A stretch of 64,000 nucleotides of DNA, from the sequence record OL615013; one strand, written 5' to 3'. The stretch is from Shigella phage ChubbyThor. Made by a program: the position numbers and the translations under genes. The notes below the pieces were generated by a model. That model was not told the DNA's origin. It searched no databases and worked only from the letters and a program-made list of their open reading frames with translations. Of this stretch, positions 7,229 to 63,989 are shown one piece after another. Positions within the stretch are counted from its first letter, which is position 1. Every line of letters starts with the position of its first letter.

Positions 7229-7933
7229 CTATTTCTTCTTATGCATCCGACGCGCATCTTTCCAAACAGACATCTGACTCTGTTTCTGGAAGCGAGCGGT
7301 GCGCATGAAGAGGACGATCTCCCAGTACTGTGGCTCGATCTCATAGAGCTGAGTGCGGAAGCGGTCGGCGCGGTACAGCTTCACACAGTGATTGTACAGC
7401 GGGTGGTTGGCAAACCGCTTCAGAGCATCCCAAGTGAGCTTCAGACGCGTCTTTGAGCGGTACGCCCGTTCGTTGCGCAACTTGATGAGATCTTCGAACA
7501 CTAACAGCCTGAGCTTCGGTGGGAGGTAATGCATGTTCAGTCCCCAGAGGTATGTCACGCCCTTCTCTCCAAAGGTGATTCCATCACCCTTGGCAAAGTT
7601 GAAGAAGAACACCAGAGGATACATATCCCAGTACGGCAGTTCGTCCTTCGTCAGAGCATCGTATTTGAAATAGAACATGCGCCCGACCATATACCGCACA
7701 CCCTGTACGGGACGCTTGTGATCAGCGAACGCCTGTTTCATATGGTTGGGAGTCAGGTTGGCGTCCTTAGACACACGCTCCATGAACCACACATGCGAAC
7801 GGCGGATGTTGCGCTTCGCCTCTGGACCGAAGTGTTGGCGGTACTTTCGGATGTATCGCTTGACGAGTTCAGGGGCGTCCATCTCGGCCGGAAACAGCAA
7901 CGGATCTTCTTCGCCAGCTGCATTCTTTGCCAT
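7229..7933 (-). CDS. hypothetical basic protein
   Basis: ORF track 234 aa; Lys/Arg-rich C-terminus; no recognisable motif. Confidence 0.45.
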   Translation of the reverse strand: MAKNAAGEEDPLLFPAEMDAPELVKRYIRKYRQHFGPEAKRNIRRSHVWFMERVSKDANLTPNHMKQAFADHKRPVQGVRYMVGRMFYFKYDALTKDELPYWDMYPLVFFFNFAKGDGITFGEKGVTYLWGLNMHYLPPKLRLLVFEDLIKLRNERAYRSKTRLKLTWDALKRFANHPLYNHCVKLYRADRFRTQLYEIEPQYWEIVLFMRTARFQKQSQMSVWKDARRMHKKK

Positions 7934-7944
7934 TTGTCAACTCC

Positions 7945-7952
7945 TATAAATA
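7945..7952 (+). promoter_or_regulatory. T4-type late promoter TATAAATA
   Basis: Exact TATAAATA ~35 nt upstream of the GTG start at 7987; the window encodes gp55. Confidence 0.6.
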
Positions 7953-7986
7953 ACAACAGTTATCTTATTTAAGTGGAGTCCTCACC

Positions 7987-8931
7987 GTGGAAGACTATCG
8001 CAATTTTATCACACAGATGTTACAGCGGGGCTTGTCACGCAAGAACCGCTTCAGAGTGACCATCCCTCTGCCACCAGGGATCTTTGACTCCAATGCCACT
8101 CTGGCTAATGACGGAAAGGCGTACAGCACCAATTCATCTTTCGGTGACTTGTTTAAGCAGTCAGCCCGTATTGTAAACGCTTTCTTTGGAGGGACAAACC
8201 AGACTTCCCGTTCCCTTCAGATGATGTGTATGGTTGCCTCATTGCCGGGGGTTGGTATTGACACCACCCCAATGACGAACAACGGCAACCACATCAAGAT
8301 GCCGAACAACAAGTCCAACGTCGACCTCGACCTGTCATTCTTGTTGGCTAATGACTATTACGAGAAGTCTGTGATGGACAAGTGGAAGAGTCTGATCTTT
8401 GATCCATACACTACCAAGATGGGCTATTACGAAGACTTCGTCACCGACATCTGCATTGAGCAACTTGATACTGAAGATCAGGTGGTCCACCGCGTCTACA
8501 TCGTCGAGGCTCATCCGATCAACTTCAGTTCCATCGAGTTGGACAAAGGTGCTACAGATCAGTTCAACCAATACAACATCTCTTTCTCTTACAACAAAGT
8601 GCTATCGGAGACAGAATATGAAACACGCAGCCTTTCCAGCGATTTTCTTCCTCTCGGTATTGCTGACGCTCTTACCAGTGGTGACTGGGAAACTGCGGCC
8701 TCAAAAGCCGGACAGCTTTATCGGAAAGTCAAAGAAGGAAACTTCACAGGAGAGGCTCTCCTGGCTTACAAACAGCTTGACCAACTTGTAAACAACCTGG
8801 CTGGGATCAGCCTACAGGACTTCGAGCGCATCTCGGTGGGTATCTCTCGTGACATCATGGGCAACGATAACCTGACGGCGGCGGAGAAGACAAGCCTGTT
8901 GGGGATATTGCAAGATGTGATGGGCAAATAA
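7987..8931 (+). CDS. virion structural protein, tail-tube-family baseplate protein (gp48/gp54-like), late gene
   Basis: 314 aa; N-terminal NRFRVTIPLPPG resembles the opening beta-strand motif of T4 tail-tube family; late promoter upstream; plus-strand island. Confidence 0.4.
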   Translation: MEDYRNFITQMLQRGLSRKNRFRVTIPLPPGIFDSNATLANDGKAYSTNSSFGDLFKQSARIVNAFFGGTNQTSRSLQMMCMVASLPGVGIDTTPMTNNGNHIKMPNNKSNVDLDLSFLLANDYYEKSVMDKWKSLIFDPYTTKMGYYEDFVTDICIEQLDTEDQVVHRVYIVEAHPINFSSIELDKGATDQFNQYNISFSYNKVLSETEYETRSLSSDFLPLGIADALTSGDWETAASKAGQLYRKVKEGNFTGEALLAYKQLDQLVNNLAGISLQDFERISVGISRDIMGNDNLTAAEKTSLLGILQDVMGK

Positions 8932-8955
8932 AAAGCCCTCCGAAGAGGGCTTTTT
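8932..8955. terminator. bidirectional intrinsic terminator (aaaAGCCCTCcgaaGAGGGCTttttt)
   Basis: 9-bp GC stem with A-run 5' and T-run 3', between convergent genes ending at 8931 (+) and 8958 (-). Confidence 0.75.
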
Positions 8956-8957: not shown

Positions 8958-10004
8958 TTAGTTAGACTTGAGATACTGCTCGAAGTCGTCAATGGAAGCC
9001 GTGTTCTTGGCATCCGGTGTAGACTGAGACTGAATTTGAGTCTGAGTCTGTGACGGCGCGGCCTGCTGTTGTTTCAGGCTGTCTTGAGCAGTTGGCTGCT
9101 GGTTGACGGGCTGCTGGTGAGCAGTCTGGGTGTTAGGGGCATGTGCCATCGTGGCCGCACCACCTTCAACCAGAGGCTGGCCATCAGGGATTGCCAGAAC
9201 TTTACGCAGACGCTTTTCCAGAGAGTCGTAGTCTTTGAAGTTAGCCGGATTGAAGAATTCAAACAGGCTGTGTTCACGAGACCACACGTCTTCCATGTAG
9301 GCTTCGTCGTCGCTCAGTGGAGCCGGAGCAGCCCAACTGACGTTGGAGAAGTTGGCCACCAGACCTTCCCAGTTCCCAAACTTCTTCTGCTCACCAAAGA
9401 GCTTCAGGTTCAGGTTGGCACCTTCCCACAGATCGAACGGATCGAATTTAGGGTCGGTTGGGAATTTCGGGTTCTGCGCCTGATCCAGGATTTTCTTGAT
9501 GGCGTTACCAAACTCCAGCAGGAAGACCTTGCCGTTGTTTTCCGGTACGTTGGCATCGTTGATCACCAGGATGTTGGCGTAGTATTTGGTGTCAGGCAGA
9601 CGTTTCTTCAGGATGTCCTTCAGCTTTTCGTCGTTCGTTTCTTTCTGCTGCGCCCACAGCGGACGGTCATGGTCGCGCACCGGATCGTCGTTGCCGAACG
9701 TCTGAGGTGAGTTCTCAATGTACCAACCACCAGGTCCCTGGAACTGATGCTTCATGATCATGGCGCAAGGGGTCAGGATCTGATCTTTATCGATCGTTCC
9801 TTCTTCCTGTGCCTTGATGTCTACCAGTGGGACTGGCAGGAAGCGGATGGTGTTCTCGGAGATGCCATCTTTGTTCCAAGTCCATTTCCAGATGCGAGGA
9901 TCCTTCTGGAAGCCGGACTTCTGGCCTTGCTGTGCAAGACGCGCCTGCATTGCGTCAGCTTGCTGACCACGGGACGCTTTCAGACGATCGAATAAATTAC
10001 CCAT
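8958..10004 (-). CDS. 32: single-stranded DNA-binding protein gp32
   Basis: 348 aa; IRFLP, YYANILV, PENNGKVF, LWEGANLNLK blocks collinear with T4 gp32 (IRFLP, YWANILV, PENEGKVF, CPWEGANF); acidic Gln/Ser-rich C-tail. Confidence 0.85.
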   Translation of the reverse strand: MGNLFDRLKASRGQQADAMQARLAQQGQKSGFQKDPRIWKWTWNKDGISENTIRFLPVPLVDIKAQEEGTIDKDQILTPCAMIMKHQFQGPGGWYIENSPQTFGNDDPVRDHDRPLWAQQKETNDEKLKDILKKRLPDTKYYANILVINDANVPENNGKVFLLEFGNAIKKILDQAQNPKFPTDPKFDPFDLWEGANLNLKLFGEQKKFGNWEGLVANFSNVSWAAPAPLSDDEAYMEDVWSREHSLFEFFNPANFKDYDSLEKRLRKVLAIPDGQPLVEGGAATMAHAPNTQTAHQQPVNQQPTAQDSLKQQQAAPSQTQTQIQSQSTPDAKNTASIDDFEQYLKSN

Positions 10005-10349: not shown

Positions 10350-10595
10350 CTACACTAATTTCTTGGACTTCAGCGTGTCTTTGATCAGGCGCGCATCGGA
10401 GCACTCAGCTGTCAGTCGCGACAACAATGGTGCTGTAATCATCTTTCTGACTTTGGTTTCGTCTATGTCGTTCTCTTCACAGACAGCAGCCAGAGTCTCA
10501 AGGATACTATCCTTGGTTTGGGCGGCGCGCAGTAGGACAATTTCAGAAAATGATTCTGGTGTCATTACAAGCGCTGGTAGTTTTTCGTCAGACAT
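10350..10595 (-). CDS. hypothetical protein
   Basis: ORF track 81 aa. Confidence 0.4.
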   Translation of the reverse strand: MSDEKLPALVMTPESFSEIVLLRAAQTKDSILETLAAVCEENDIDETKVRKMITAPLLSRLTAECSDARLIKDTLKSKKLV

Positions 10596-11131: not shown

Positions 11132-11721
11132 TATACACCTCTGTTGAAGTCTGGATTATTCTCAATGAAGTAAGAGCCACAAGCCATTATCGCAAACGAA
11201 TCCACGAGGTCATCGATTGGCTTGGGATCCTTAACTTCCAACATGTCCATTATACCGCGCATATTAACATTGAACAGCGACTCGAAGTGAGCGATCATGG
11301 CGTGTTTATCCGCGTTGCCCTTGTCGGTGAACATCTTCTTCACATGGGATGGCGTCACGATCTGGAAGTCGAAATTGTTACGGCGCAGGGCTTGCTTCAA
11401 CAGAGAGGTATTCTCTGCGGTCTGGCAGATGTTGTTGGAGTTCTTAGAGTTGCCCATGGCATACCCTTCAAGAGTGATCGCATCCGGCTTCTCGGTCAAC
11501 AGGACAGCCTCAGCCCATTTACAGATGTTATAGAAGCGCTCTTCTGGGGTCTCCCACTTCGGCTGCTTCATGATGAGGATGTTCTGGCGAATCTGAGTGC
11601 AGTACTTCTCCACAGTATAATATGCGTAGAAGCGCAGATGATCAAAATCAAGAGGGTCCTTGTCATCCCAGAAGCACAGGGATGGGCAACCATAGGAGTA
11701 GTCGATTCCGCAATATTTCAT
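11131..11721 (-). CDS. RuvC-like Holliday junction resolvase (RNase H fold)
   Basis: 196 aa; MKYCGIDYSYG (first catalytic Asp), ITLEGY (Glu), ...DDLVDSFAIMA (C-terminal acidic pair) in RuvC order. Confidence 0.5.
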   Translation of the reverse strand: MKYCGIDYSYGCPSLCFWDDKDPLDFDHLRFYAYYTVEKYCTQIRQNILIMKQPKWETPEERFYNICKWAEAVLLTEKPDAITLEGYAMGNSKNSNNICQTAENTSLLKQALRRNNFDFQIVTPSHVKKMFTDKGNADKHAMIAHFESLFNVNMRGIMDMLEVKDPKPIDDLVDSFAIMACGSYFIENNPDFNRGV

Positions 11722-11772
11722 GTAAATAGCCCATAACGAAGTTTCATTGGTGTATGGGCTATTTACGCCGGG

Positions 11773-12264
11773 TTAACGGGTGATGATTTTACCTTCAGGT
11801 AGAATCAGACCAGGGTGGTCCAGGTTCTTCTGCATCTGTTGGATACTCTGCAGGATCACGGTAGTGTCGATGTGGCGTTTCACTTTGCGAGCCTCATCAC
11901 CATAAGAGATCTGCCCCTGAGGATCGATATAATGAGCCGACACAACCTGCAGGTCATACCCGCATTTCATCAGGTACTTGGCGATGTTGCTGACTTCCAG
12001 CGACAGGGATTCACCGTCAACGCCGATGTTGGCTGAGTAGACGATAGCGCCGTTTTCTGCTGCTGTCGGGTCAAACAACACCATACCAGCGATCGTCTGG
12101 ATCAAAGGAACTCCCTCGGTATCGAAAGCCACCTGATCGAACGCACCGATGAACTCATCCGGCACTTTACCTTCGGCATCAGAAACTGTGTGTTTCATCA
12201 GGTCCAGGACGTGTTGTTGTACTTCCTCAATCGGAGCACGTTCAACGGGTTTTTCGTTTTGCAT
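11773..12264 (-). CDS. hypothetical protein (start chosen to avoid overlap with upstream ORF)
   Basis: ORF track 11773..12375; internal Met at ~12264 follows stop of 12242..12772. Confidence 0.4.
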   Translation of the reverse strand: MQNEKPVERAPIEEVQQHVLDLMKHTVSDAEGKVPDEFIGAFDQVAFDTEGVPLIQTIAGMVLFDPTAAENGAIVYSANIGVDGESLSLEVSNIAKYLMKCGYDLQVVSAHYIDPQGQISYGDEARKVKRHIDTTVILQSIQQMQKNLDHPGLILPEGKIITR

Positions 12265-12772: not shown

Positions 12773-12815
12773 TCCTCGTTATAATTACTCTTACAATATA
12801 CCGTGGAGATACATT

Positions 12816-13622
12816 ATGAATTTGCCATCATTGCCCAGAACAGAAAAGACATATAAAAGCGACTTTTGGCCTACTGTGATCAAATATCGCGCCTTTACTG
12901 CGGGGCAACAAACTTTATTACTTCAGGTGTCAGATCCGCAAACGCCGATTGAAGAACGCGCGGCCATGATGGAGAGCCTCTTCAGCGAATGTGTAAATGC
13001 AGGTGCGCCATTCAGCAAACTACCAATCGGTGTTGTCGAAGAAGTGTTCATCCGTATGCGCATGATCGCCATCGGCGAATTGATGAAGATTCGCTACAAG
13101 TGCAATAATCAGGTTGAAGAAACGATCGATCTGGGAGATGGCCAAGAAAAGCGCCAGATGGTTCCCTGTGAGCAGGAACTGACTCTGCCTATCCCGCTGA
13201 ACAATGTAAAATGCATTGCTCAGGACGGCTTCCAGGAGACGTTTGACCTGCCGGGTGGCTATCACCTCAAGATGCGCCAACCTTCCTTCTCGGACGCCAC
13301 GGCGCTGTCTGATGCTGTAAGTGTTGAGATGATGCTGGCCACCTTTATCGACTGCCTGTACGATGATGACGGTCAGGTGTGGAAGGTTGAGAATCCTGAA
13401 GAAATCGGGATCACTCCGGAAGAGGCTACCGAGCGCCGCCGTGTGAAAGAAGCGTTTGTTGAGTGGGTGAAGGATAACATCGAATCAGATGTCATCGACA
13501 GCATTACGAAGAACTTCTTCCACAAAATACCGCGCATCCACTACAAGAGTTCAATCAAGTGTCCGAAGTGTGGTAAGGAACACAAGATCGAATTCAATAG
13601 CATTAATGAAATTTTCATCTAA
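12816..13622 (+). CDS. hypothetical protein with C-terminal zinc ribbon (CPKCG)
   Basis: ORF track 12702..13622; likely ATG at 12816 (MNLPSLPRTEK); plus-strand island upstream of gp5. Confidence 0.45.
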   Translation: MNLPSLPRTEKTYKSDFWPTVIKYRAFTAGQQTLLLQVSDPQTPIEERAAMMESLFSECVNAGAPFSKLPIGVVEEVFIRMRMIAIGELMKIRYKCNNQVEETIDLGDGQEKRQMVPCEQELTLPIPLNNVKCIAQDGFQETFDLPGGYHLKMRQPSFSDATALSDAVSVEMMLATFIDCLYDDDGQVWKVENPEEIGITPEEATERRRVKEAFVEWVKDNIESDVIDSITKNFFHKIPRIHYKSSIKCPKCGKEHKIEFNSINEIFI

Positions 13623-13771: not shown

Positions 13772-13795
13772 TCCCGCTTCGGCGGGATTTTTATT
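13771..13795 (+). terminator. intrinsic terminator (ATCCCGCttcgGCGGGATTTTT)
   Basis: 7-bp GC stem, UUCG loop, T-run. Confidence 0.7.
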
Positions 13796-14090: not shown

Positions 14091-14098
14091 CATAAATA
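14091..14098 (+). promoter_or_regulatory. late-promoter-like CATAAATA upstream of gp5
   Basis: 7/8 match to TATAAATA ~35 nt upstream of the 14133 start. Confidence 0.4.
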
Positions 14099-14132: not shown

Positions 14133-15743
14133 ATGTTAGACAATATGAGATGGTTTTATGGCACCGTTGAAGATGTCAACGATCCAGACCAAAACGGGCG
14201 CGTCGCCGTCCGCATCTATGGCGTCCACACTGATGACACCGTCCTCCTGCCTACGGACAAACTCCCATGGGCGAAGGTGCTGATGCCTGCTTCAAACGCC
14301 TCCTCTGCTGGTTTAGGTTGGTCTCCAACGGGTATCATTCCTGGCACTGAGGTCATGGGGTTCGCCCTTGACGAAGCATACCAGAACTTACGCATCACCT
14401 GGACTTGGCCTGGGGCAAATCCCACTGATGGAGCTGACACGAATCCGCTGGCTCTCGGACAGGTCGTTCAATCTGTAGAACGTCAGGCGTACAACGCTGT
14501 CACTGACGTTCCTGTGAAACAAGAAGACGAACCACAACCAGATCCACAACCACCTGTTGGCGGGTATGATCCTGAAAAATGGATGACCATCGCTCGTGGC
14601 GAGCTGGGTGTCAAGGAGTACGCCGGAAAGTTCAACAACAACCCGCGCATTATAGAATATCACAAGACAACCTCCCTTGGCGCTTCTGAAGATGAAGTGT
14701 CGTGGTGTGCGGCGTTCGTGGGCTGGGTTATGTTGCAGGCTGGATACACGTCTACGCGCTCCGCTCTTGCCCGATCTTACCTTACATGGGGTAGTGCACT
14801 GTCAGCACCACAATATGGTGCTATCGTAGTCTTCCGGCGCGGTAACAACCCTACATTTGGACACGTGGCGTTTGTACAGAAGTTCGACGCAAACTATGTC
14901 TGGTGTATCGGTGGCAACCAATCCGATTCAGTGAAGGTCAGCCGCTTCAGCCGTTCGTCAGTCCTGGGCTACCGCTGGCCTGGTCCGGCGAATACAGCTT
15001 CAGCCGCCCCAGCGCAACAGAACGGGAAATGGTCTGAGCCTATCCCTGATCGTACCCCAAAAGAGCAGGCAACTCCGGCTCCTACAGGGCGCGTACAGGA
15101 TATTGATAACACGGGCGAAACTATGGTTCCGGCAGCGGGTGGCTCCAAGTACCCGTACAACAACGTCATGGCATCCCGAGCAGGTCACATAATGGAGGTG
15201 GACGACACTCCTGGTGGTGAGCGTCTTCATTGGATGCACATGTCCGGTTCCTACAAACAGATGCTCCCGAACGGCGACGTCGTCAACAAGTCAGTGAAGG
15301 ATCATTATGACCTGACCATGTTTGACAAGCGCTATTATGTCGGCGGGGACCACAACCTGACGGTCAAAGGAACTGAAGTGCAGCGCAAGACTGGCGAGGT
15401 CTATCACCTTCACTCCAACAACTACTCCAACGTGGTTGCGGGTACAGCGCTGATGAAATTCAGTGACCTGGCTGAGTTGCAAGCACAGAATATTCTGCGC
15501 ATCATCTGCGAGACTCTGGAGGTCGGCGGGACGTTGAAGGTTCCTAAGATTCTGGCAACAGAGATCATCGCCGACAAACTGACGGTTGCTCAGACGATTA
15601 ATGGTAACATCATATATGCCGAAGGTGCTGGTCGCGCTTCTTCTCTGTCAGGTGCAACCCCTGCATCCCCTACGGGACCAGGTGAGATTGATATCAAGGC
15701 AGAATTAAAAGACAATGGTGGTAATTTCGGCACCGAAGAGTAA
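14133..15743 (+). CDS. 5: baseplate hub / tail-associated cell-puncturing protein gp5-like with Cys-His peptidase (CHAP/NlpC-P60-like) domain
   Basis: 536 aa; N-terminal WFYGTVEDVNDPDQNGRVAVRIYGVHTDD matches T4 gp5 OB-fold opening (WFVGVVEDVMDP...RVRVFGLHTDD); central SWCAAFVGWVM ... GHVAFV Cys/His pair instead of T4 lysozyme domain. Confidence 0.75.
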   Translation: MLDNMRWFYGTVEDVNDPDQNGRVAVRIYGVHTDDTVLLPTDKLPWAKVLMPASNASSAGLGWSPTGIIPGTEVMGFALDEAYQNLRITWTWPGANPTDGADTNPLALGQVVQSVERQAYNAVTDVPVKQEDEPQPDPQPPVGGYDPEKWMTIARGELGVKEYAGKFNNNPRIIEYHKTTSLGASEDEVSWCAAFVGWVMLQAGYTSTRSALARSYLTWGSALSAPQYGAIVVFRRGNNPTFGHVAFVQKFDANYVWCIGGNQSDSVKVSRFSRSSVLGYRWPGPANTASAAPAQQNGKWSEPIPDRTPKEQATPAPTGRVQDIDNTGETMVPAAGGSKYPYNNVMASRAGHIMEVDDTPGGERLHWMHMSGSYKQMLPNGDVVNKSVKDHYDLTMFDKRYYVGGDHNLTVKGTEVQRKTGEVYHLHSNNYSNVVAGTALMKFSDLAELQAQNILRIICETLEVGGTLKVPKILATEIIADKLTVAQTINGNIIYAEGAGRASSLSGATPASPTGPGEIDIKAELKDNGGNFGTEE

Positions 15744-23360: not shown

Positions 23361-23411
23361 TGAATGCGAAGGTATTTAAAGTGAAAGTGAACTACTTGAG
23401 GAACTGCTGCA

Positions 23412-26922: not shown

Positions 26923-26971
26923 GATGTTGTCCTCAGAAAAAGAAATCCCCCTGTATTTAGGGGGATTGTCA

Positions 26972-27211: not shown

Positions 27212-27220
27212 ACAACCTCC

Positions 27221-27790
27221 TTAGACAGGCTTGACGCCGAGGAACTTGGCGATATCAGCAGCCAGGTTTTTACCCTTGCTGATGTCGTGTTCTTTACCGC
27301 CGACAGTAACGATCACATATGGGTCGTCTTCACCGCCGAAGTTCACAGACACAGCCTTACCATGGCCGGGGATGCCAGAGTATTCGAACTCAGTGCGACC
27401 ACTCTTGCGAGACTTGCCAACACCCAGTGCTTTACCGATCATCTTGTCCATGTTCGCCAGTTCCTGAGCATAGGCTTCGGTCACCTGGCCTTTGTCAGCA
27501 GACTTGCCAAAGAAGAATTCGAAGCCGTCATGGACAGCAACGACTTCCTGACCTTGGGAGATACCGTGAGTCTGGTCTGGGGTCAGCTTCACCTTGATGG
27601 TATTGCCGTTGGTTAACTCCAGGTTGTAGACATCCGCCTGATTGTCAGGAGTGATCTGGGTCACGGTAGCACCGGAGCACCACTGAGTGCCGTCAGCTTG
27701 CTTGGTGATGGATACGCTTTTGCCCTGGACACCAGCATGGGTCTGAGGCTGAGCAGCTTGTTCTTTAAAGTATTGAAGGAACGGTTTCAT
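27221..27790 (-). CDS. hypothetical protein, probable late (virion-associated?) product
   Basis: 189 aa; minus-strand TATAAATA ~26 nt upstream of start. Confidence 0.45.
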   Translation of the reverse strand: MKPFLQYFKEQAAQPQTHAGVQGKSVSITKQADGTQWCSGATVTQITPDNQADVYNLELTNGNTIKVKLTPDQTHGISQGQEVVAVHDGFEFFFGKSADKGQVTEAYAQELANMDKMIGKALGVGKSRKSGRTEFEYSGIPGHGKAVSVNFGGEDDPYVIVTVGGKEHDISKGKNLAADIAKFLGVKPV

Positions 27791-27815
27791 CTCGAATCTC
27801 CTCGGGGATTTCAGT

Positions 27816-27823
27816 TATTTATA
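27816..27823 (-). promoter_or_regulatory. T4-type late promoter TATAAATA (minus strand), overlapping a GC hairpin
   Basis: Plus-strand tatttata; hairpin AAGCCCCcgaaGGGGCTT immediately 3' on plus. Confidence 0.5.
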
Positions 27824-27865
27824 AGCCCCCGAAGGGGCTTTATTCTGTTCAAGTCCAGCTAGTTT

Positions 27866-29917
27866 TCACCAAACATTCAGAAATAGTGCATGACCCATAC
27901 CACCGTTTGACTGAAGAGACCATTTTCCTGTTTCTCTTCCCAGGCGTTCTATGTTGTTGAGTTGGTTTATCGACAATTCAGAAGAGTCAAATAATACCAC
28001 ATCACGTTTTTTGGGTTCTCTCAAATAAGGTCCGAGATCAATATCAATCATCCGGTTTATAAATTCTACTACTTCGGCTTGTTTCTTTGGTAATGTGATA
28101 TCCGGATTGTTTGTCACTTTCTCCAAGCGTTTATTTTCTGCGCTTATCATGGATAGCATAATTTGTGTAACTTTGCCGTCAGACAAGTTGTAATCGTTCC
28201 AAATCACTTCACCTTTATCCGTGATGGTTATATCATTCAAGAAAACCTGGTTTGGGTTGTATGTCTGACTTTTCAACTGTTGGAGGTTTCTGGAAAGATA
28301 TTCCATTTTTGATGAGATTTCATTAATCACACTCTGGACCAAATCTTTGTTCAAAGGAAGTTCATATGTCTTCGGATTGTTCAGGGTACGCCCTTTCTGA
28401 GAGACAATTGGGGTGAATGCAACTTTGCCTTTGTCATGATAATAGGTTACGTTGGTTATCATAGAAGTACCGGCATATTTTCCCGTTTCGGGGAAATTGA
28501 TTCCAGACCAAGTGATGGACATGCCGTTCTCTGTTTCCCCGAACACTGATGCGTTTTTCGGGATTCGCAGGTCTTTGGAACTGATAGTTGGGCCAGAAGA
28601 ATACTTCTTATACAGGTCGTGGAACTGGGCGACAATCGCCTGCGCCGCACTTTTGAAGTCGCGGTATTTCAGATCTGCTGCTTTATCTACCAGTTTACCA
28701 TCTTTATAAACCAGGTAATCTGATTTGATGGTGGTGTCAGAAGGTTCCCAAGCAGCGCCAGTAGCACTGATCAAAATCTCACTGAACTTGGAAGACAGGA
28801 CGAAAACATGATCGTCTTTGCGGCGTATATTAGAATCAAGTTTGTTGATCTCAGCCCAAACTTTGTCCGCCTTCGCTTTCGCCACATAGTTGTTACGGGC
28901 TGTGGTAGAAAGACCTGGAGGAGGGATAATGTCATCACCCTGGATACTGGTTGCCCCCACCCCAAATTCGACGTATGCGATGATCTTACCACCAGACTTC
29001 AGTTCCCAACCCATACCCTGACGGTCAGACGCTGCCATCAGTTTGCGGTCCACTTCACCACGACCAACATACTCTTTGTTGAACACAGTTACCTGGGCGA
29101 TGGTTTGGGTGCGGGCAATCTTCGCCATTGCGCCGTCTTTGACCATGATGGCCAGATCATTGGAACTCAGAGTCACGTCGTTGGCACCGACTACCTTCAC
29201 AACAGAACTGAAGATACCGTTGGATTTTGCCATGACGGAGATGTTCCAGTCGGGGTTGTTTGACGAAGTCCCCACATCAGGGGTGTTGTTCTGAACCGGA
29301 ACGTCACCGACCTTGTCCGGGTCATCCCAGGTGATACCCTGCATCTTCGGACCGTCGAATACCTGAGCCGGATCTTTACCCTTACGAACGAGCCACACAT
29401 AACCACGGTCAGGGACAGGCGCGTAGGTCAGGTCCATCACGTTCAGCTTCTGCTTCAGGCCGGACTGGCGGATGATCTTAGGAATCAGGGTCATCCCGCG
29501 TTCCAGCGCTTTCTTAGAGAAGTTGACAGCATAACCATCGATGGTCTTGCCCAGAGGGGTCGCCAGGAACTGCTTGGTCGCTTCGATCATGGAGGCGATG
29601 ACGCGCATTGGGTTCTTGAAGCGAGCGATGGCATCAGGATAAACAGAGCCGCGCTTCTGGCCGATGAAGACCTGACGAACGTTCTTGCCCAGCCCCTGAG
29701 GGGTATAGAACTGAATGCGGTATTCCTTTTCATCTTCGTCGATGAAGGTGAAGAACACATCGCCTGCGTTCTTCTTGCCCATGGTCAGCTCATACGGAGC
29801 AGAGTTGAACGCTTCGTCCAACTGATCCTTTTCCTGCATGAACTGAAGGAAATTTGGCTTTGACATTTTGTATCTCCTGATGGAATTATGGCGGTTTCTT
29901 CTAATTAGCGAAACCAA
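27866..29917 (-). CDS. large hypothetical protein (about 666 aa from internal start MSKPNFLQF)
   Basis: ORF track 683 aa; no recognisable catalytic motif. Confidence 0.5.
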   Translation of the reverse strand: MVSLIRRNRHNSIRRYKMSKPNFLQFMQEKDQLDEAFNSAPYELTMGKKNAGDVFFTFIDEDEKEYRIQFYTPQGLGKNVRQVFIGQKRGSVYPDAIARFKNPMRVIASMIEATKQFLATPLGKTIDGYAVNFSKKALERGMTLIPKIIRQSGLKQKLNVMDLTYAPVPDRGYVWLVRKGKDPAQVFDGPKMQGITWDDPDKVGDVPVQNNTPDVGTSSNNPDWNISVMAKSNGIFSSVVKVVGANDVTLSSNDLAIMVKDGAMAKIARTQTIAQVTVFNKEYVGRGEVDRKLMAASDRQGMGWELKSGGKIIAYVEFGVGATSIQGDDIIPPPGLSTTARNNYVAKAKADKVWAEINKLDSNIRRKDDHVFVLSSKFSEILISATGAAWEPSDTTIKSDYLVYKDGKLVDKAADLKYRDFKSAAQAIVAQFHDLYKKYSSGPTISSKDLRIPKNASVFGETENGMSITWSGINFPETGKYAGTSMITNVTYYHDKGKVAFTPIVSQKGRTLNNPKTYELPLNKDLVQSVINEISSKMEYLSRNLQQLKSQTYNPNQVFLNDITITDKGEVIWNDYNLSDGKVTQIMLSMISAENKRLEKVTNNPDITLPKKQAEVVEFINRMIDIDLGPYLREPKKRDVVLFDSSELSINQLNNIERLGRETGKWSLQSNGGMGHALFLNVW

Positions 29918-35178: not shown

Positions 35179-36294
35179 TTATGCGTCCAGTTTGTTCAGG
35201 CGTTGTTGGGCAGCATTGTAGAAGTGCTCTGCCAGTTTACAGACGTTGTCAGGGCGCTGGATGTTGTTCCCGGCGCGGATATCCTTCTTCAGGACTTCCA
35301 CTGCATCGGTTGCCACCATCTCTTCGGTGACCTCAACCTTCTCAGCCGCCACGGTGATAGTCCGGTCGATGAAGTTGTAGTCAATGCACTTGCAGCGCTT
35401 CATGGCATCACAGAACTTTTCATAATGCTTAGCATTGTCGCGGTTCTGTACGATAACCTTAACGATCTGTCCTTCAATACCCAAGCCTGTGTTCAGCCAT
35501 TCCGGGTCGATCCAGTTACCCTCATCGTCTGAGGACAACTTGGTGTAGTCATACTCCACATAGCGGAACAACGTCTGGTGCTCGCTGTTGGGGATGAATA
35601 CCTCGCCGCCGCGCATATCGTCTACATAGAAACCACGGTTGGTGCCGTCTTTGTAGTCTTCCCAGTTCAGGTGATACGGAGTCCCAATATATTGAATGTT
35701 ACCTTCCATCGAACGGGTATGGAAATGTCCCGTGTCGACCCTGGTAAACTTGGAAAGCAGAGCAACGTCGATCTGACCGTGATCACAAGTAGAAGACTGG
35801 TACATTTTGAACCCTGCCAGCTCCAGATGCGCAAAACAGTACTCGGCGTCTGTATCTTGTATCGCTTTAATAGACGCATCATAGTTCTCCTTGTTGATCC
35901 AAGGCAGCAGCAGAGTCTTGACACCCTCGATCATCACTTCGGTCGGTTCGCTGTAGTAGCAGTACACATCTGGGTCGAGTTCGTTCAGGTAGGATGGCCA
36001 GTTGATGCGGTTGGACTCTTCCAGGGTGATGTCGTGGTTGCCAACAATGCCATTCCACTTGATGTCAGCCGCTTTCAGCGCTGGAGTTAATTCATCCTTC
36101 AGCCAGTCTTTGTCGCGCCCGTACATGAATTTTCGGACGTCAAACGTGTCACCCAATTGCCAGACCTCATGGATGTCCGAGTCGACAAGCTCGGGGATGA
36201 AATAGTTGATGAGGTAGTTCTTGATGAAGTCGCGAACGTAACGGGAACCATTACGGCTCCCGATATGCAGATCGCCTATTTTAGCAATCGCCAT
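35179..36294 (-). CDS. 47: recombination endonuclease subunit gp47 (Mre11/SbcD-like phosphoesterase)
   Basis: 371 aa; IGDLHIG, GDTFDV, GNHD metallophosphatase motifs. Confidence 0.85.
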   Translation of the reverse strand: MAIAKIGDLHIGSRNGSRYVRDFIKNYLINYFIPELVDSDIHEVWQLGDTFDVRKFMYGRDKDWLKDELTPALKAADIKWNGIVGNHDITLEESNRINWPSYLNELDPDVYCYYSEPTEVMIEGVKTLLLPWINKENYDASIKAIQDTDAEYCFAHLELAGFKMYQSSTCDHGQIDVALLSKFTRVDTGHFHTRSMEGNIQYIGTPYHLNWEDYKDGTNRGFYVDDMRGGEVFIPNSEHQTLFRYVEYDYTKLSSDDEGNWIDPEWLNTGLGIEGQIVKVIVQNRDNAKHYEKFCDAMKRCKCIDYNFIDRTITVAAEKVEVTEEMVATDAVEVLKKDIRAGNNIQRPDNVCKLAEHFYNAAQQRLNKLDA

Positions 36295-37022
36295 TATTCT
36301 GTTTCTCCTTCGGTTTCGTCCAAATCGAATTGGGTTTTGCCAAAGTCCTGATCTGAATTGTCTTCGGCCTGCGCTGTTACCGTATTCTTAGCCTGCGCCA
36401 TGTATTGAAGTATGCCTTTCGCAATCTTTTTATTCGATTCTGCGAGACGAGCCGCCTCCACCTTCTCTCGCTCCTTCTGCCTTTGAGCGTCCTTTTTGTT
36501 CTCAAAGTTACCGATACGTTCACGGAAGTCCATGCCAATCCCTGTCGCGTCAACAAAGATCTCTTGTTGGAAGTCGGGATCGTCTGCCAGGCCTGCGAAC
36601 CCACCCGCCTCTTCAAATGAGCGCAATTTGATGTACGTGTGTTCTTCTTCGATGTTCAGTTTACGAGCAAATGAGCGATCCGCACACATGGTCACCCAAG
36701 AGAAGAAGTTGATCTTCCCTTTCTTTCCAATGTGGTCGACGTCAAAGGTGTGGAGGTAACGCAGGATGTTGACGATTGCTTCAGAGACCATGTCTTCACG
36801 GAAGGGATAGTCGCGATAGTTGTAGCGGGTGCTCATCTTGGTGATGATGCGCTGGACCTGTAGAGCAACATAGTTGGGGATCTTTGGAAGCCTGGTGCCT
36901 TCAGCCAGAGCCTTCTTACGAGCAGGGATCCAATCACGAAGGATACTGATGACACGCTCGTTATCTTCGTCCGTGAAATATTTGACGACATTCTCGCCAC
37001 GATCAACATAATTCATACCCAT
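36294..37022 (-). CDS. 55: late transcription sigma factor gp55
   Basis: 242 aa; blocks VISILRDW, PNYVALQVQRIITKMSTRYNYRDY, NFFSWVTMCADRSFARK collinear with T4 gp55; acidic C-terminal extension. Confidence 0.7.
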   Translation of the reverse strand: MGMNYVDRGENVVKYFTDEDNERVISILRDWIPARKKALAEGTRLPKIPNYVALQVQRIITKMSTRYNYRDYPFREDMVSEAIVNILRYLHTFDVDHIGKKGKINFFSWVTMCADRSFARKLNIEEEHTYIKLRSFEEAGGFAGLADDPDFQQEIFVDATGIGMDFRERIGNFENKKDAQRQKEREKVEAARLAESNKKIAKGILQYMAQAKNTVTAQAEDNSDQDFGKTQFDLDETEGETE

Positions 37023-37561: not shown

Positions 37562-37563
37562 GA

Positions 37564-37571
37564 TATAAATA
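37564..37571 (+). promoter_or_regulatory. T4-type late promoter TATAAATA
   Basis: Exact octamer ~36 nt upstream of ATG 37607; lies in the divergent region next to the rnh start. Confidence 0.45.
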
Positions 37572-37606: not shown

Positions 37607-38374
37607 ATGGCACCCCGCGCATATCGTTTCAGTCTCACCGCCCCGCAGATTGAGCAATTGCTCCTTTCTATCAATGATGCTATCAAGTCAGAAGATATCA
37701 TCTATGATTATGCTGCAGGTGGGACTGTTGGGCAAGTCGCAGCAGCGTCTGCCGTCAAGAACATGTGGTTGAAGCTCAACGAGATGGTAACAGGCCAAGG
37801 CCTCAAAGATGCCATCAACGCTGCAGAAGACAGCAACGTGTTCACCGACTATTATAAGTCTTTACTGGATCGCGAAGGCTGGAAATTTATTGGGTCTCCG
37901 GCAGATGAACTTGAGCGAGGCGACATCGACACCGCGAACTTCACGGGTGGTGAGGTCATTCTACTTCAGAAGAACGCTTCAGGCAACCCCGAATTCCAAT
38001 ACTGGAAGCGTACCCCGGTTGCTGGGGGTGATCCGACCTTCGCCTGGGCTTCGGTCTATGAAGGGAACTCCAACGACTCCAGCATCGAAATCCCGGTGAT
38101 TGGCACCAGCGTCCTCAAAGACATTCCCAAGGCTCTCTTCCATATGGTGGAGTTCCGGGTTCATGTCTATGATGAAACGCTGGGGCACTGGCAAGATACA
38201 GATGGCAAGGTGGGGTATCGTGGCGAGGATCTGTTCTACAGCACGTATAACCATGTGCAGACCAAACCGCTCGCCACCATTGACTTCAGTCAAGACACAG
38301 ATAGCATGACAGTCTCTGTGACTTCCCTGGAGCCGAATGTCAAATGCCATCTGTCGTTTATCGCTGGTTACTAA
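37607..38374 (+). CDS. hypothetical protein, probable late/structural product
   Basis: ORF track 37448..38374; ATG at 37607 with RBS aaagaggaa; plus-strand island. Confidence 0.5.
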   Translation: MAPRAYRFSLTAPQIEQLLLSINDAIKSEDIIYDYAAGGTVGQVAAASAVKNMWLKLNEMVTGQGLKDAINAAEDSNVFTDYYKSLLDREGWKFIGSPADELERGDIDTANFTGGEVILLQKNASGNPEFQYWKRTPVAGGDPTFAWASVYEGNSNDSSIEIPVIGTSVLKDIPKALFHMVEFRVHVYDETLGHWQDTDGKVGYRGEDLFYSTYNHVQTKPLATIDFSQDTDSMTVSVTSLEPNVKCHLSFIAGY

Positions 38375-60451: not shown

Positions 60452-61120
60452 TTACTCAATCTGTGCGCCGACGAAGTAATTGATCGTCGCATCGGAGGAC
60501 TGGAAGTTCACCATCTGCAGTTCGGCACAGGCGCGCAGAGTGTAGTTGCCTTCGATCATCTTCAGGTTGGCAACGTCCAGCGGCATTACGAAGTCCGGCA
60601 ACGCGGTTTCACCCAGCTCAACAGTGTAGTTGTTGGAGTTATCCAGGGTAGTGGTGGTCGCAACCAGACGAGTTTTGCCGCCCTGAGCAACCAGACGCAC
60701 TGTCTTGTGACCGAGGGTAGAACAGGCGCGGGTCAGTTCTTTCATCTTCTCTGGAGTGATGATCGCTTCAAAGTCGACAGACGGCAGTTCAATGGTGTCA
60801 GCCGGAACGACAGTGAGTTCTTTAGCAGAACGCCAGAATTGCAGCTGAGAGCTTTCGCCTTTCAACAGGATGTAGTCCTGATGGAATTCGGCTTTACCGC
60901 CTTTGAAGGAAGGCAGGCGCTGGATGGCCAGAAGTTTGGTCAGGTCCAGGATAGGGAACTCAAACGGGAAGTCTTCTTCGATCTGTGCCACGGCGATAAC
61001 AGTAGACGAATCGTTGATGCTGCGCAGCATCTTACCCGGTGTCAGAACGATAGATGGGTTGATGGTCTCAAAGTTGGCCAGCAACTGGAGTGTACGTTCG
61101 GAGAGAGTGATCTCTTGCAT
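60452..61120 (-). CDS. 45: sliding clamp gp45
   Basis: 222 aa; N-terminus TLQLLANFETINPSIVL (cf. T4 TALLKNFATINSGIML); upstream of gp44 as in T4. Confidence 0.7.
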   Translation of the reverse strand: MQEITLSERTLQLLANFETINPSIVLTPGKMLRSINDSSTVIAVAQIEEDFPFEFPILDLTKLLAIQRLPSFKGGKAEFHQDYILLKGESSQLQFWRSAKELTVVPADTIELPSVDFEAIITPEKMKELTRACSTLGHKTVRLVAQGGKTRLVATTTTLDNSNNYTVELGETALPDFVMPLDVANLKMIEGNYTLRACAELQMVNFQSSDATINYFVGAQIE

Positions 61121-63334: not shown

Positions 63335-63365
63335 CATACAAAATCTCCCAAGGAATATGGGGTAT

Positions 63366-63989
63366 TTAGCGATCCGGCCAGACTCCGTTCTGTTCTTTAT
63401 CCATGCGATGGTACAGACGAACACGCTCAAACATCTTTGTCAGGATGTCATCGCGGTTGAACTCTATGATGGTTGGCGTCAACGATGACTCGTTGGCAAT
63501 CACATTGATGAGGCGGGTGATCTTGACACCGAACATCTGCTGGAACATAACAGAGTACAAGCACAGCTGGATACTGTAGTCCTCGATCATTCCCCGCGTC
63601 TTCATGGTGTTCGATGTCTTGAAGTCGATGATAGCAGGCTTACCCTCATAAACCCCGATAAGGTCCACTCGACCTGCGAGACCAAGCACCTCGCTATATA
63701 ACGGGATCTCCTGAGCATAGATCTTTGTCATCTTGTTCAGATAGGGGAACAGCTGCTTGAACATGAACATGTATTCGCCAGCCGCTTCCAACACTTCTTT
63801 CATTGGGCGGTTCTTCAAATACAGTTCACATGCAAGGTGCAGCTTCTCCCCTCGGTCAGCGCAACGCATGGTCTCAAGGTCGGCGGCCTCTGCACCCAGC
63901 TTCTCCCTCCAAGCCTCAAGCCATTCATGATCACCAGTACGCCCCAGCATCGTCGTGACAGACGTCAGCTTGACACCAGTTGGTGACAC
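63366..63989 (-). CDS. putative PD-(D/E)xK nuclease (RecB/Cas4-like exonuclease fold); may extend beyond window end
   Basis: 207 aa; GRVDLIGVYEGKPAIIDFKTS (D...D/E-x-K); ORF start within 11 nt of window end. Confidence 0.35.
   Translation of the reverse strand: MSPTGVKLTSVTTMLGRTGDHEWLEAWREKLGAEAADLETMRCADRGEKLHLACELYLKNRPMKEVLEAAGEYMFMFKQLFPYLNKMTKIYAQEIPLYSEVLGLAGRVDLIGVYEGKPAIIDFKTSNTMKTRGMIEDYSIQLCLYSVMFQQMFGVKITRLINVIANESSLTPTIIEFNRDDILTKMFERVRLYHRMDKEQNGVWPDR

What the first reader, a model, noticed from the sequence alone, without database searches (positions are those of the whole stretch)
7945..8931. Late genes behind TATAAATA promoters occur as islands inside early-gene arrays
Exact TATAAATA octamers sit ~26-36 nt upstream of the 7987 (+), 37607 (+) and 27790 (-) starts, with a 7/8 match before gp5. 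Three of these are plus-strand islands within long minus-strand early arrays, and 7987 and 37607 are divergently oriented from their neighbours. With gp55 encoded in the window, these are probably late structural genes (7987 shows tail-tube-family features) and are the best local candidates for uncharacterised virion proteins.
Basis: partly seen in the sequence, partly recalled or inferred. Interest (0 to 1): 0.4.

Follow-up and report, generated by a model that had tools for sequence, protein, structure and literature searches.

The report
Known phage late promoters before virion genes
The TATAAATA boxes are real, but they are a minority spelling of this phage family's already described late-gene promoter (core TAAATA), and the genes behind them encode baseplate and virion proteins that are already annotated or already detected in related phage particles.

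Summary
The window is an Agtrevirus genome (Ackermannviridae; 97-98% identical to SW16-7, Ag3 and SKML-39; probably Shigella phage ChubbyThor). The genes behind them are virion genes. ORF 7987-8931 is the gp54 baseplate tail-tube initiator. ORF 37607-38374 models as a gp9-like baseplate protein. Orthologues of all three were detected by mass spectrometry in purified Kuttervirus Sajous1 virions.

The interpretation needs correcting:
- The functional signal is the hexamer TAAATA, usually CTAAATA. This is the published Viunalikevirus motif CTAAATAcCcc and matches the Aeh1-type late promoter.
- 10 of 13 TAAATA copies in the window lie 20-55 nt upstream of a same-strand start (P = 4e-15). The figure is 29 of 44 in the Ag3 genome.
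- More than half of these sites are on the minus strand inside the 'early' arrays (gp2, resolvase, endolysin, DUF5856, ORF 27221-27790, UvsW). Late genes are therefore not only plus-strand islands.
- The 2011 Ag3 genome paper already lists this very box and the gp5 box.

No RNA data exist, so late timing is inferred. Verdict: observation confirmed, interpretation partly supported, already known, low interest.

The parts
7945..7952 (+). Late-promoter box TATAAATA for gp54; predicted transcription start near 7958, giving a 29-nt leader
   Evidence: Exact match. Ends 34 nt before the GTG at 7987. Identical to the box in Ag3 Table S2 'Porf072'. Conserved as (T)TATAAATA or TATAAGTA in relatives down to 56% gp54 identity while the flanks diverge. 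No sigma-70-like site on this strand. The start site is inferred from T4 geometry and the A-rich positions in the 30-site profile.
7966..7973 (-). Late-promoter box CTTAAATA for gp2, interleaved with the gp54 box; predicted start near 7960
   Evidence: TAAATA ends 32 nt before the gp2 ATG at 7933. Kept as TTTAAATA in Sajous1 and as TATTTA(A) on the plus strand in Kevin and phiEa2809, with a constant 13-14 nt spacer.
7975..7978 (+). Shine-Dalgarno GGAG of gp54, 8 nt before the GTG
   Evidence: Read directly from the sequence.
7987..8931 (+). gp54-like baseplate tail-tube initiator (314 aa)
   Evidence: phrog_3629 E = 3e-177 and phrog_45. T4 gp54 chain 5iv5_W E = 0.007. 98.7% identical to Ag3 orf00073, annotated 'Gp54 baseplate tail tube initiator'. 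Sajous1 orthologue gp25 is 90% identical and gave 24 spectra in virions.
8930..8955 (.). Bidirectional terminator hairpin between the convergent genes gp54 and gp32
   Evidence: Folds at -15.6 kcal/mol (+) and -17.1 kcal/mol (-), z = -5.4 and -4.9, with U-runs on both strands. Annotated as Torf073/Torf074 in Ag3.
7229..7933 (-). gp2 DNA end protector, a late virion-type gene rather than an early one
   Evidence: phrog_429 E = 8e-68. 99.6% identical to Ag3 orf00072.
12780..12787 (+). Variant box TATAATTA for gp26
   Evidence: Ends 28 nt before the in-frame ATG at 12816, which has GGAGA upstream. The orthologous Sajous1 site reads TATAAATA.
12816..13622 (+). gp26 baseplate hub subunit with a revised start (268 aa)
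   Evidence: PF12322 E = 1.5e-36. The match begins at profile position 45 when the Ag3 start at 12966 is used. Sajous1 gp16 is 267 aa.
14091..14098 (+). Box CATAAATA for gp5 (and probably gp25)
   Evidence: Ends 34 nt before the ATG at 14133. Listed as Porf084 in Ag3 Table S2. Reads CATAAATA in Sajous1.
14133..15743 (+). gp5 baseplate hub and tail lysozyme-type protein
   Evidence: PF06714 Gp5_OB and CHAP domain. 100% identical to Ag3 orf00084.
27816..27823 (-). Box TATAAATA for ORF 27221-27790, directly after a terminator hairpin
   Evidence: Exact match. Ends 25 nt before the ATG at 27790. The preceding hairpin folds at -13.1 kcal/mol. The orthologous sites read TATAAATA, CTAAATA or CTAATTA in different relatives.
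27221..27790 (-). 189-aa virion-associated protein of unknown fold
   Evidence: phrog_4048, function unknown. 85% identical to Sajous1 gp215, which gave 32 spectra. The AF2 model gave no significant fold match.
37564..37571 (+). Box TATAAATA for ORF 37607-38374; predicted start near 37577
   Evidence: Exact match. Ends 35 nt before the ATG. Conserved as TATAA[A/G]TA down to 61% protein identity. Lies 2 nt from the true RNase H start codon at 37561 (-).
37607..38374 (+). gp9-like baseplate protein (255 aa), annotated only as hypothetical
11760..11767 (-). Box CGTAAATA for the RuvC-like resolvase; it forms the 5' arm of a hairpin that covers the ribosome-binding site
   Evidence: Ends 38 nt before the ATG at 11721. 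Hairpin -20.9 kcal/mol, z = -6.7, with 12 of 12 ribosome-binding-site positions paired. An RNA starting after the box folds at only -3.3 kcal/mol. The hairpin is kept in relatives through compensatory changes.
23373..23380 (-). Box TTTAAATA for the endolysin; it forms the 5' arm of a hairpin that covers the Shine-Dalgarno GGAGG
   Evidence: Ends 30 nt before the ATG at 23342. Hairpin -18 kcal/mol, z = -7.0, against -3.5 kcal/mol for the late RNA. Conserved in relatives.
26954..26961 (-). Box CCTAAATA for the DUF5856 (Dps-like) gene, placed in the loop of a terminator hairpin
   Evidence: Ends 31 nt before the ATG at 26922. Hairpin -15.3 kcal/mol. Identical in Sajous1.
29902..29909 (-). Variant box GCTAATTA for the large virion protein at 27866-29866
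   Evidence: Ends 35 nt before the ATG at 29866. The same box occurs in Sajous1 before gp214, which gave 196 spectra.
63363..63370 (-). Box GCTAAATA followed by cccc (the full family motif) for the UvsW helicase
   Evidence: Ends 25 nt before the ATG at 63337. UvsW domains found.
36294..37022 (-). gp55 late sigma factor
   Evidence: phrog_234 E = 3.6e-52. 98.7% identical to Ag3 orf00122.
10350..10595 (-). gp33 late-transcription co-activator
   Evidence: PF16805 E = 1.2e-18.
60452..61120 (-). gp45 sliding clamp
   Evidence: 100% identical to Ag3 orf00165 'Gp45 sliding clamp'. PF09116 match is weak, E = 0.0017, below the Pfam cut-off.

Best explanation
The octamers are -10-type boxes of gp55-dependent late promoters, as in T4.

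Proposed mechanism: host RNA polymerase core carrying the phage gp55 recognises the box. gp33 and the gp45 sliding clamp, loaded on replicating DNA, help recruit it. There is no -35 element. Transcription starts about 6 nt downstream of the box, at roughly 7958 for gp54. This gives a short 20-33 nt leader carrying the Shine-Dalgarno sequence.

For gp54 the unit is monocistronic: box 7945-7952, coding sequence 7987-8931, bidirectional terminator 8930-8955.

In this phage family the recognised core is TAAATA, with TAATTA and TAAGTA tolerated. The upstream two bases are variable, most often xC.

The boxes sit before virion and late-function genes wherever those lie, on either strand. This lets baseplate genes scattered through the replication module be switched on with the main structural module.

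Shown here: motif presence, placement statistics, cross-genus conservation, identity of the downstream genes, and presence of gp55, gp33 and gp45. Taken from the literature: detection of the orthologues in virions. Inferred: recognition by gp55, the start sites, and late timing.
For: Placement and controls:
- TAAATA is the most promoter-positioned hexamer of all 4096: 10 of 13 copies in the window (P = 4e-15) and 29 of 44 in the Ag3 genome (P = 4e-38).
- The other 63 A/T-only hexamers reach 5.3% (window) and 7.5% (Ag3). The antisense orientation scores 0 of 13.
- One-base-different hexamers (TAAATT, TAAATG, TAAATC, TAAAAA) score 0-1 of 15-27 copies.

Genes served:
- In Ag3 the boxes precede gp48, gp4, gp22, gp18, gp14, gp6, the tailspikes and orf206.
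- In the window they precede gp54, gp2, gp26, gp5, endolysin, resolvase, UvsW and proteomics-confirmed virion proteins.

Conservation:
- Every orthologous position in Kuttervirus Sajous1 keeps a TAA[A/T/G]TA box.
- The gp54 and gp2 boxes persist to 56% protein identity while the flanks diverge.
- TATAAATA, CTAAATA and CTAATTA interchange at one orthologous site.

Promoter features:
- Nothing is conserved upstream of the box, and A-rich positions occur about 6 nt downstream.
- No sigma-70-like promoter lies on the relevant strand.
- gp55, gp33 and gp45 are present.

Literature:
- T4 late promoters and the Aeh1 a/gC variant.
- The family motif CTAAATAcCcc.
- The Ag3 list of putative late promoters.
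- Virion mass spectrometry of the orthologues.
Against: - No transcript 5' ends or time-course RNA data for any Ackermannviridae phage were found in the searchable library, so promoter activity and timing are untested.
- The stretch just after the box is C-rich in the family profile rather than A/T-rich as in T4.
- About a third of the Ag3 boxes are also arms of RNA hairpins, so part of the conservation could reflect RNA structure.
- The total TAAATA count in the window equals chance (13 observed, 12.1 expected). Only its placement is unusual.
- One counted site (31756-31763) depends on a doubtful small ORF start.
Confidence: 0.85

Rival explanations
1. The octamers are -10 elements of host sigma-70 promoters (TATAAA resembles TATAAT), so these genes would be expressed early or constitutively rather than late.
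For: TATAAATA contains a 5-of-6 match to TATAAT. The family also has a separate TATAAT-containing motif, TTCAAT-N14-TATAAT, which is enriched in the window (16 hits against 3.6 expected).
Against: - The consensus scan finds no -35 partner on the relevant strand at 7945 or 37564.
- Positions upstream of the box show no conservation.
- At orthologous sites the box changes to CTAAATA or CTAATTA, which are poor sigma-70 -10 hexamers.
- The TTCAAT-N14-TATAAT motif marks different sites, 14 of 16 on the minus strand, and none coincide with the boxes.
Confidence: 0.05
2. TAAATA is conserved mainly as an RNA-level element, that is, an arm or loop of terminator or translational-control hairpins or a processing site, and not as a promoter.
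For: - 9 of 30 Ag3 sites lie in significant hairpins that pair the box region with the ribosome-binding site.
- In the window this applies to the resolvase and endolysin sites. The DUF5856 box sits in a terminator loop.
Against: - The three exact TATAAATA sites and the gp5, gp2 and gp26 sites have no significant structure (z between -0.6 and +0.4).
- The hexamer is invariant while its pairing partners vary.
- Its fixed orientation and 20-46 nt distance from starts, and its likeness to the gp55 box, fit a promoter.
- In T4 the same hairpins work precisely because a late promoter lies inside them, so the two roles are compatible.
Confidence: 0.07
3. The boxes are chance matches in A/T-rich intergenic DNA.
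For: Three octamers against 0.46 expected is only modestly unusual (1 of 100 shuffles). The total TAAATA count equals expectation.
Against: - Composition-matched hexamers are promoter-positioned in only 5-7% of copies, against 66-77% for TAAATA.
- The antisense orientation scores 0 of 13.
- The boxes are conserved in position across genera.
Confidence: 0.02

Closest known systems
Phage T4 late promoters (TATAAATA, recognised by gp55 with gp33 and gp45)
   Same: - An 8-bp box with no -35 element, followed by a short leader.
- gp55, gp33 and gp45 are all encoded here.
- The boxes sit before homologues of gp54, gp2, gp5 and gp26, the lysozyme-type gene and UvsW.
- Late transcripts run on either strand.
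- Three sites match the T4 consensus exactly.
   Different: - Only a minority of sites use TA at -13/-12. The family majority is xC.
- TAATTA and TAAGTA variants are used before major genes (gp19, gp20 and gp23 in Ag3).
- The segment just downstream is C-rich, not A/T-rich.
- The main structural module shares a strand with the replication genes.
Aeromonas phage Aeh1 late promoters (CTAAATA; Nolan et al. 2006, PMC1524935)
   Same: C at -12 with the TAAATA core, found by looking upstream of late-gene orthologues. This matches the majority form in Ag3 and in the window.
   Different: The gp54, ORF 37607 and ORF 27790 sites carry the T4-type TA instead of a/gC. This family mixes both forms.
Viunalikevirus / Ackermannviridae conserved motif CTAAATAcCcc
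   Same: It is the same element. It is quoted as a family-specific regulatory motif in the EspM4VN Agtrevirus paper. UvsW in the window carries it in full.
   Different: The published 11-mer captures only the subset with a C-rich tail. The TATAAATA sites in this finding do not match it. I could not read the original 2012 description, so what function it assigned is unverified.
Putative late promoters Porf072 and Porf084 of Shigella phage Ag3 (Anany et al. 2011, PMC3121705, Table S2)
   Same: Porf072 (tctttgccatttgtcaactcctataaata) is base-for-base window 7924-7952. Porf084 is the CATAAATA box before gp5.
   Different: The paper assigns the first box to orf072 (gp2). On the strand given, however, it faces orf073 (gp54), and gp2 has its own box on the other strand. 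The paper counted 17 one-mismatch matches but listed only three.
T4 gp54 baseplate tail-tube initiator
   Same: Sequence-level homology, and the orthologue is a virion component.
   Different: Only about 100 residues align to T4 gp54 at E = 0.007. The gene lies between gp2 and gp32 rather than next to gp48.

Membership tests
T4-type gp55-dependent late promoter | 8-bp TATAAATA box or a close variant | tested here: met
   Exact at 7945, 27816 (-) and 37564. One mismatch at the gp5, gp26 and endolysin sites.
T4-type gp55-dependent late promoter | No conserved -35 element | tested here: met
   Positions -12 to -3 of 30 aligned Ag3 sites show no conservation. No sigma-70-like site on the relevant strand.
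T4-type gp55-dependent late promoter | Genome encodes gp55, gp33 and a gp45 clamp | tested here: met
   phrog_234 E = 3.6e-52. PF16805 E = 1.2e-18. gp45 is 100% identical to Ag3 gp45, though its own Pfam match (PF09116) is below the cut-off.
T4-type gp55-dependent late promoter | Lies directly upstream of late (virion, lysis, packaging) genes | tested here: met
   Window: gp54, gp2, gp26, gp5, endolysin, resolvase, UvsW and proteomics-confirmed virion proteins. Ag3: gp48, gp4, gp22, gp18, gp14, gp6 and the tailspikes.
T4-type gp55-dependent late promoter | A/T-rich segment immediately downstream of the box | tested here: inconclusive
   The family profile is C-rich at +1 to +4 after the box and then A-rich. 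The gp54 site itself reads ACAACAGTTATC (8 of 12 A/T).
T4-type gp55-dependent late promoter | Transcription starts about one helical turn downstream of the box, late in infection, dependent on gp55 and replication | not testable with these tools
   No RNA 5'-end or time-course data for Ackermannviridae were found.
Ackermannviridae / Aeh1-type CTAAATA(cCcc) motif | C at -12 before TAAATA, with a C-rich tail | tested here: not met
   The three exact octamers have A at -12 and tails AACA, TCCC and AACT. The feature is met at the UvsW, DUF5856 and 31756 sites. The shared feature is the TAAATA core.
T4 gp54 (baseplate tail-tube initiator) family | Sequence homology to gp54 or the tail-tube family | tested here: met
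   phrog_3629 E = 3e-177 and phrog_45 E = 7e-26. 5iv5_W E = 0.007. There is no Pfam hit.
T4 gp54 (baseplate tail-tube initiator) family | Present in the virion | not testable with these tools
   Literature only: the 90%-identical Sajous1 gp25 gave 24 spectra in CsCl-purified particles.
T4 gp9 baseplate protein family (for ORF 37607-38374) | gp9-like fold | tested here: met
   [not shown]
T4 gp9 baseplate protein family (for ORF 37607-38374) | Detectable sequence homology to gp9 | tested here: not met
   Neither the single sequence nor the 27-sequence profile hits any PDB sequence. The PHROG families hit have no assigned function.

The most novel reading that the evidence does not exclude
[quoted passage not shown] This would explain the C-rich 'cCcc' tail of the family motif CTAAATAcCcc as an anti-Shine-Dalgarno sequence.

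Read-through RNA from upstream would then be translationally silent or terminated, and only RNA started at the late box would be translated. T4 is known to use this device at genes e, 49, soc and I-TevI. Here it would extend to the endolysin and the resolvase in the window, and to gp14, gp6, two tailspikes and others in Ag3.

The three TATAAATA genes of this finding lack the hairpin, so they would be a simpler tier.
Probability: 0.4. Interest if true: 0.4.

Novelty: already known. Interest (0 to 1): 0.18.

Why it matters
For annotation, a TAAATA-placement rule gives a cheap and specific way to mark late transcription units in Ackermannviridae, which are widely used as biocontrol and therapy phages. 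It also corrects several errors:
- The Ag3 'Porf072' box faces gp54, not gp2.
- The ChubbyThor ORF 37448-38374 should start at 37607.
- The Ag3 gp26 and RNase H starts are truncated.
- The hypothetical protein at 37607-38374 is a gp9-like baseplate protein, a candidate socket for the branched tailspike complex.

None of this changes what is understood about T4-like late transcription.

Tried and rejected
- Pfam gave nothing for gp54, ORF 37607 or ORF 27790, apart from a sub-threshold TOBE hit for ORF 27790.
- PDB sequence searches gave nothing useful for ORF 37607 (single sequence or profile) or ORF 27790.
- The gp55 homologue has no PDB or Pfam sequence hit. It is identified only by PHROG and by identity to Ag3.
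- The ORF 27790 model (pLDDT 66) had no significant fold match.
- Rfam found no RNA family in the window.
- The sigma-70 and terminator consensus scans added nothing at the focal sites and missed the clear 8930-8955 terminator.
- Literature searches for Ackermannviridae or Kuttervirus transcriptomics found nothing relevant.
- ChubbyThor (OL615013) is not in the phage collection, so the window's identity rests on one 100%-identical protein.
- A formal pair count on the resolvase hairpin was not run. MAFFT misplaced the compensating one-base deletions, so I relied on per-sequence folds.
- I tested whether T4-type (A at -12) and C-type boxes differ in hairpin use. They do not clearly differ: 6 of 15 C-type against 3 of 15 non-C. 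I dropped the two-class idea.
- Strand as a predictor of late genes was rejected. Most boxes are on the minus strand, and the plus-strand ORF 61461 has none.
Full report
**Identity of the window.** The 7-12 kb stretch is 97-98% identical to the Agtrevirus phages SW16-7, Gloob, P46FS4, SKML-39 and Ag3 (Ackermannviridae). Seventy-six Ag3 proteins map collinearly onto the window, most at 95-100% identity. One protein is 100% identical to Shigella phage ChubbyThor. That record is not in the searchable phage collection. G+C content is 50.5%.

TATAAATA occurs exactly three times: 7945-7952 (+), 27816-27823 (-) and 37564-37571 (+). Shuffles expect 0.46, and 1 of 100 reaches 3. The octamers end 34, 25 and 35 nt before the starts at 7987, 27790 (-) and 37607. 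CATAAATA at 14091-14098 ends 34 nt before the gp5 ATG. The stated strand arrangement is correct. gp55 (36294-37022, minus), gp33 (10350-10595, minus) and gp45 (60452-61120, minus) are all in the window.

**What lies at 7945-8931.**
- ORF 7987-8931 is the homologue of the T4 gp54 baseplate tail-tube initiator. It hits phrog_3629 (E = 3e-177), phrog_45, and weakly T4 gp54 chain 5iv5_W (E = 0.007). It is annotated as gp54 in Ag3.
- Its left neighbour (7229-7933, minus) is gp2, the DNA end protector. Its right neighbour (8958-10004, minus) is gp32.
- A strong bidirectional terminator hairpin at 8930-8955 separates the convergent genes gp54 and gp32. gp54 is therefore a self-contained unit: box, roughly 29-nt leader with GGAG at 7975-7978, coding sequence, terminator.
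- The gp2/gp54/gp32 arrangement is kept across the family as far as Vibrio phages with 31-34% gp54 identity.

**The real signal is TAAATA, not TATAAATA.** Upstream of Ag3's structural genes the recurring element is aCTAAATA(c/a), 23-43 nt before the ATG. This applies to gp48, gp22, gp18, gp14, gp6, the tailspikes and orf206. CTAATTA precedes gp19 and gp20, and CTAAGTA precedes gp23.

An unbiased test of all 4096 hexamers asked which ones lie 20-55 nt upstream of same-strand start codons. TAAATA ranks first in both data sets: 10 of 13 copies in the window (P = 4e-15) and 29 of 44 in the Ag3 genome (P = 4e-38).

The overall TAAATA count is at chance (13 observed, 12.1 expected). The signal is placement, not abundance. 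Three controls support this:
- The other 63 A/T-only hexamers are so placed in 5.3% (window) and 7.5% (Ag3) of copies.
- The antisense orientation scores 0 of 13.
- One-base variants such as TAAATT, TAAATG and TAAATC score 0-1.

The base before TAAATA in the 30 positioned Ag3 sites is C in 15, A in 6, T in 6 and G in 3. There is no conservation further upstream. A C-rich tetrad and then A-rich positions follow the box, which fits a start about 6 nt downstream.

**Catalogue of boxes in the window**.

| Gene served | Box | Coordinates | Strand |
|---|---|---|---|
| gp54 | TATAAATA | 7945 | + |
| gp2 | CTTAAATA | 7973-7966 | - |
| RuvC-like resolvase | CGTAAATA | 11767-11760 | - |
| gp26 | TATAATTA | 12780 | + |
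| gp5 | CATAAATA | 14091 | + |
| PhoH | CTTAATTA | 22487-22480 | - |
| endolysin | TTTAAATA | 23380-23373 | - |
| DUF5856 / Dps-like | CCTAAATA | 26961-26954 | - |
| ORF 27221-27790 | TATAAATA | 27823-27816 | - |
| large virion protein 27866-29866 | GCTAATTA | 29909-29902 | - |
| doubtful site (see below) | ACTAAATA | 31763-31756 | - |
| ORF 37607-38374 | TATAAATA | 37564 | + |
| UvsW | GCTAAATAcccc | 63370-63363 | - |

- The gp26 box precedes the better start at 12816.
- The 31763-31756 site depends on a small ORF whose start is doubtful. The likely gene there starts about 80 nt downstream of the box.
- Nine of the thirteen boxes are on the minus strand.
- The plus-strand ORF 61461-61838 has no box.
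- A separate published family motif, TTCAAT-N14-TATAAT, gives 16 hits with up to 2 mismatches against 3.6 expected. Fourteen of them are on the minus strand, which fits those arrays being early or middle units.

**Conservation.**
- In Kuttervirus Sajous1, every orthologous position carries a TAA[A/T/G]TA box. Spellings change between the two phages: gp26 TATAATTA becomes TATAAATA, ORF 27790 TATAAATA becomes GCTAAATA, and ORF 37607 TATAAATA becomes TATAAGTA.
- In IMG/VR relatives the ORF 27790 site reads TATAAATA, CTAAATA or CTAATTA. The ORF 37607 site stays TATAA[A/G]TA down to 61% protein identity.
- The gp2/gp54 spacer keeps both boxes, with a 13-14 nt gap between them, in Serratia phage Kevin (69% gp54 identity) and Erwinia phage phiEa2809 (56%), while the surrounding bases diverge.

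**Are the products virion proteins?** Published LC-MS/MS of CsCl-purified Sajous1 virions (PMC10892097) lists the following:
- gp25 'baseplate tail tube': 24 spectra
- gp203 'putative structural protein': 39 spectra
- gp215: 32 spectra
- gp214: 196 spectra

I mapped these onto the window from the annotated Sajous1 record and by BLASTP:
- gp25 corresponds to gp54 (90% identity).
- gp203 corresponds to ORF 37607 (83%).
- gp215 corresponds to ORF 27790 (85%).
- gp214 corresponds to 27866-29866 (86% over the N-terminal 192 residues).

**Comparison with published work.**
- T4 late promoters are an 8-bp TATAAATA box with no -35 element. They are read by gp55 with gp33 and gp45, and late transcripts run on either strand (PMC2988020).
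- Aeh1 uses CTAAATA (PMC1524935).
- CTAAATAcCcc is quoted as a family motif for these phages (PMC7283392).
- The Ag3 genome paper searched for TATAAATA with one mismatch and found 17 sites. Its Table S2 lists the sequence of window 7924-7952 ('Porf072') and the gp5 box ('Porf084') (PMC3121705). It attributes the first to gp2, although the box on that strand faces gp54.
- The CBA120 paper of the same year states that the late recognition sequence of ViI-like phages had not been identified.
- I found no transcriptome or 5'-end study of the family.

**Mechanism and status.**
- The best explanation is gp55-type late promoters with a relaxed -13/-12 position.
- They are placed in front of late-function genes wherever those lie.
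- Recognition, start sites and timing are inferred, not shown.
- Rivals considered were sigma-70 promoters, a purely RNA-level element, and chance. argue against them.

**Side observation.** At the endolysin and resolvase sites the box forms the 5' arm of a strong hairpin (-18 and -20.9 kcal/mol; z = -7.0 and -6.7). The 3' arm covers the ribosome-binding site. RNAs beginning just after the box lose the structure. Relatives keep both hairpins. For the resolvase hairpin this involves a compensating loss of one G:C pair and an A-U to U-A swap. Nine of 30 Ag3 boxes show the same design, including gp14, gp6 and two tailspikes. T4 uses this device at genes e, 49, soc and I-TevI (PMC3014915). The three exact TATAAATA sites do not have it.

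**Verdict.**
- Both the element and the gene are already described for this phage group.

Noticed in passing
window 23336-23400 (-) and 11712-11775 (-): [quoted passage not shown] RNA started after the box is unstructured. This is the same logic as T4 genes e and 49. Nine of 30 Ag3 boxes show it. The Ag3 paper annotated the endolysin hairpin only as a terminator.
   Followed up: partly
window 7934-7986; Ag3 19013-19062 (locus L003): The gp2/gp54 and gp4/gp48 spacers share one design: two divergent late boxes interleaved as TAAATA-N13/14-TATTTAAG, so each box lies in the other gene's leader and the predicted starts overlap by about 3 nt. Box spacing is conserved to 56% gp54 identity.
   Followed up: partly
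[not shown]
   Followed up: partly
window 37448-37657: Two start-codon errors in relatives. ChubbyThor annotates this ORF as 308 aa from the GTG at 37448, running over the promoter. Homology starts at residue 54, so the start should be 37607. Ag3 starts RNase H at 37474, but the ATG at 37561 (-) gives MIEIYSDGGS, the RNase HI N-terminal motif, only 2 nt from the box.
   Followed up: partly
window 38371-38374: The helicase (-) and the gp9-like gene (+) overlap by 4 nt at their 3' ends with no terminator between them. Minus-strand read-through towards RNase H and gp55 would run antisense across the late gene, and late transcripts would run antisense into the helicase gene.
   Followed up: no
window 12780-12966: gp26 probably starts at the ATG at 12816 (GGAGA upstream; 268 aa, like Sajous1 gp16) and not at 12966 as in Ag3. 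The Pfam T4_baseplate match begins at profile position 45 when the shorter form is used.
   Followed up: partly
window 26569-29866 (-): A four-gene cluster: a large protein with a C-terminal 'internal head protein' PHROG hit, a 189-aa protein, a 79-aa protein, and a DUF5856/Dps-like protein. All four orthologues (Sajous1 gp214-217) are in purified virions (196, 32, 20 and 10 spectra). The published 'ferrojan horse' reading of this cluster is untested. Three of the four genes have their own late box.
   Followed up: partly
window 26940-26975 (-): The DUF5856 late box CCTAAATA sits in the loop of a terminator hairpin (AUCCCCC-UAAAUAC-AGGGGGAU, -15.3 kcal/mol). The hairpin could stop upstream transcripts while the box restarts transcription.
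   Followed up: no
window 13772-14090 (+): A gap of about 320 nt between the orf083 terminator (13771-13795) and the gp5 box holds an extended -10-like TGTTATAAT at 13841-13849. No gene is annotated here in Ag3, and Sajous1 has two tiny ORFs. Rfam finds nothing.
   Followed up: no
window 61121-61460: A 340-nt A/T-rich spacer between gp45 (-) and ORF 61461 (+) contains a 9-bp A/T-rich hairpin (61226-61246), a palindromic TATTAATA and a TATAAT at 61334-61339. It has no late box. It may be an early promoter or other control region.
   Followed up: no
window 20872-21531 (-) and 30423-31675 (-): An HNH homing-endonuclease gene lies between NrdA and PhoH and is only 48% identical to Ag3's, which sits elsewhere. 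The 204-aa ORF 31061-31675 matches one Sajous1 gene (gp211, putative RNA endonuclease) but is split in Ag3 into orf114 and orf114.1, the latter with a CTG start.
   Followed up: no
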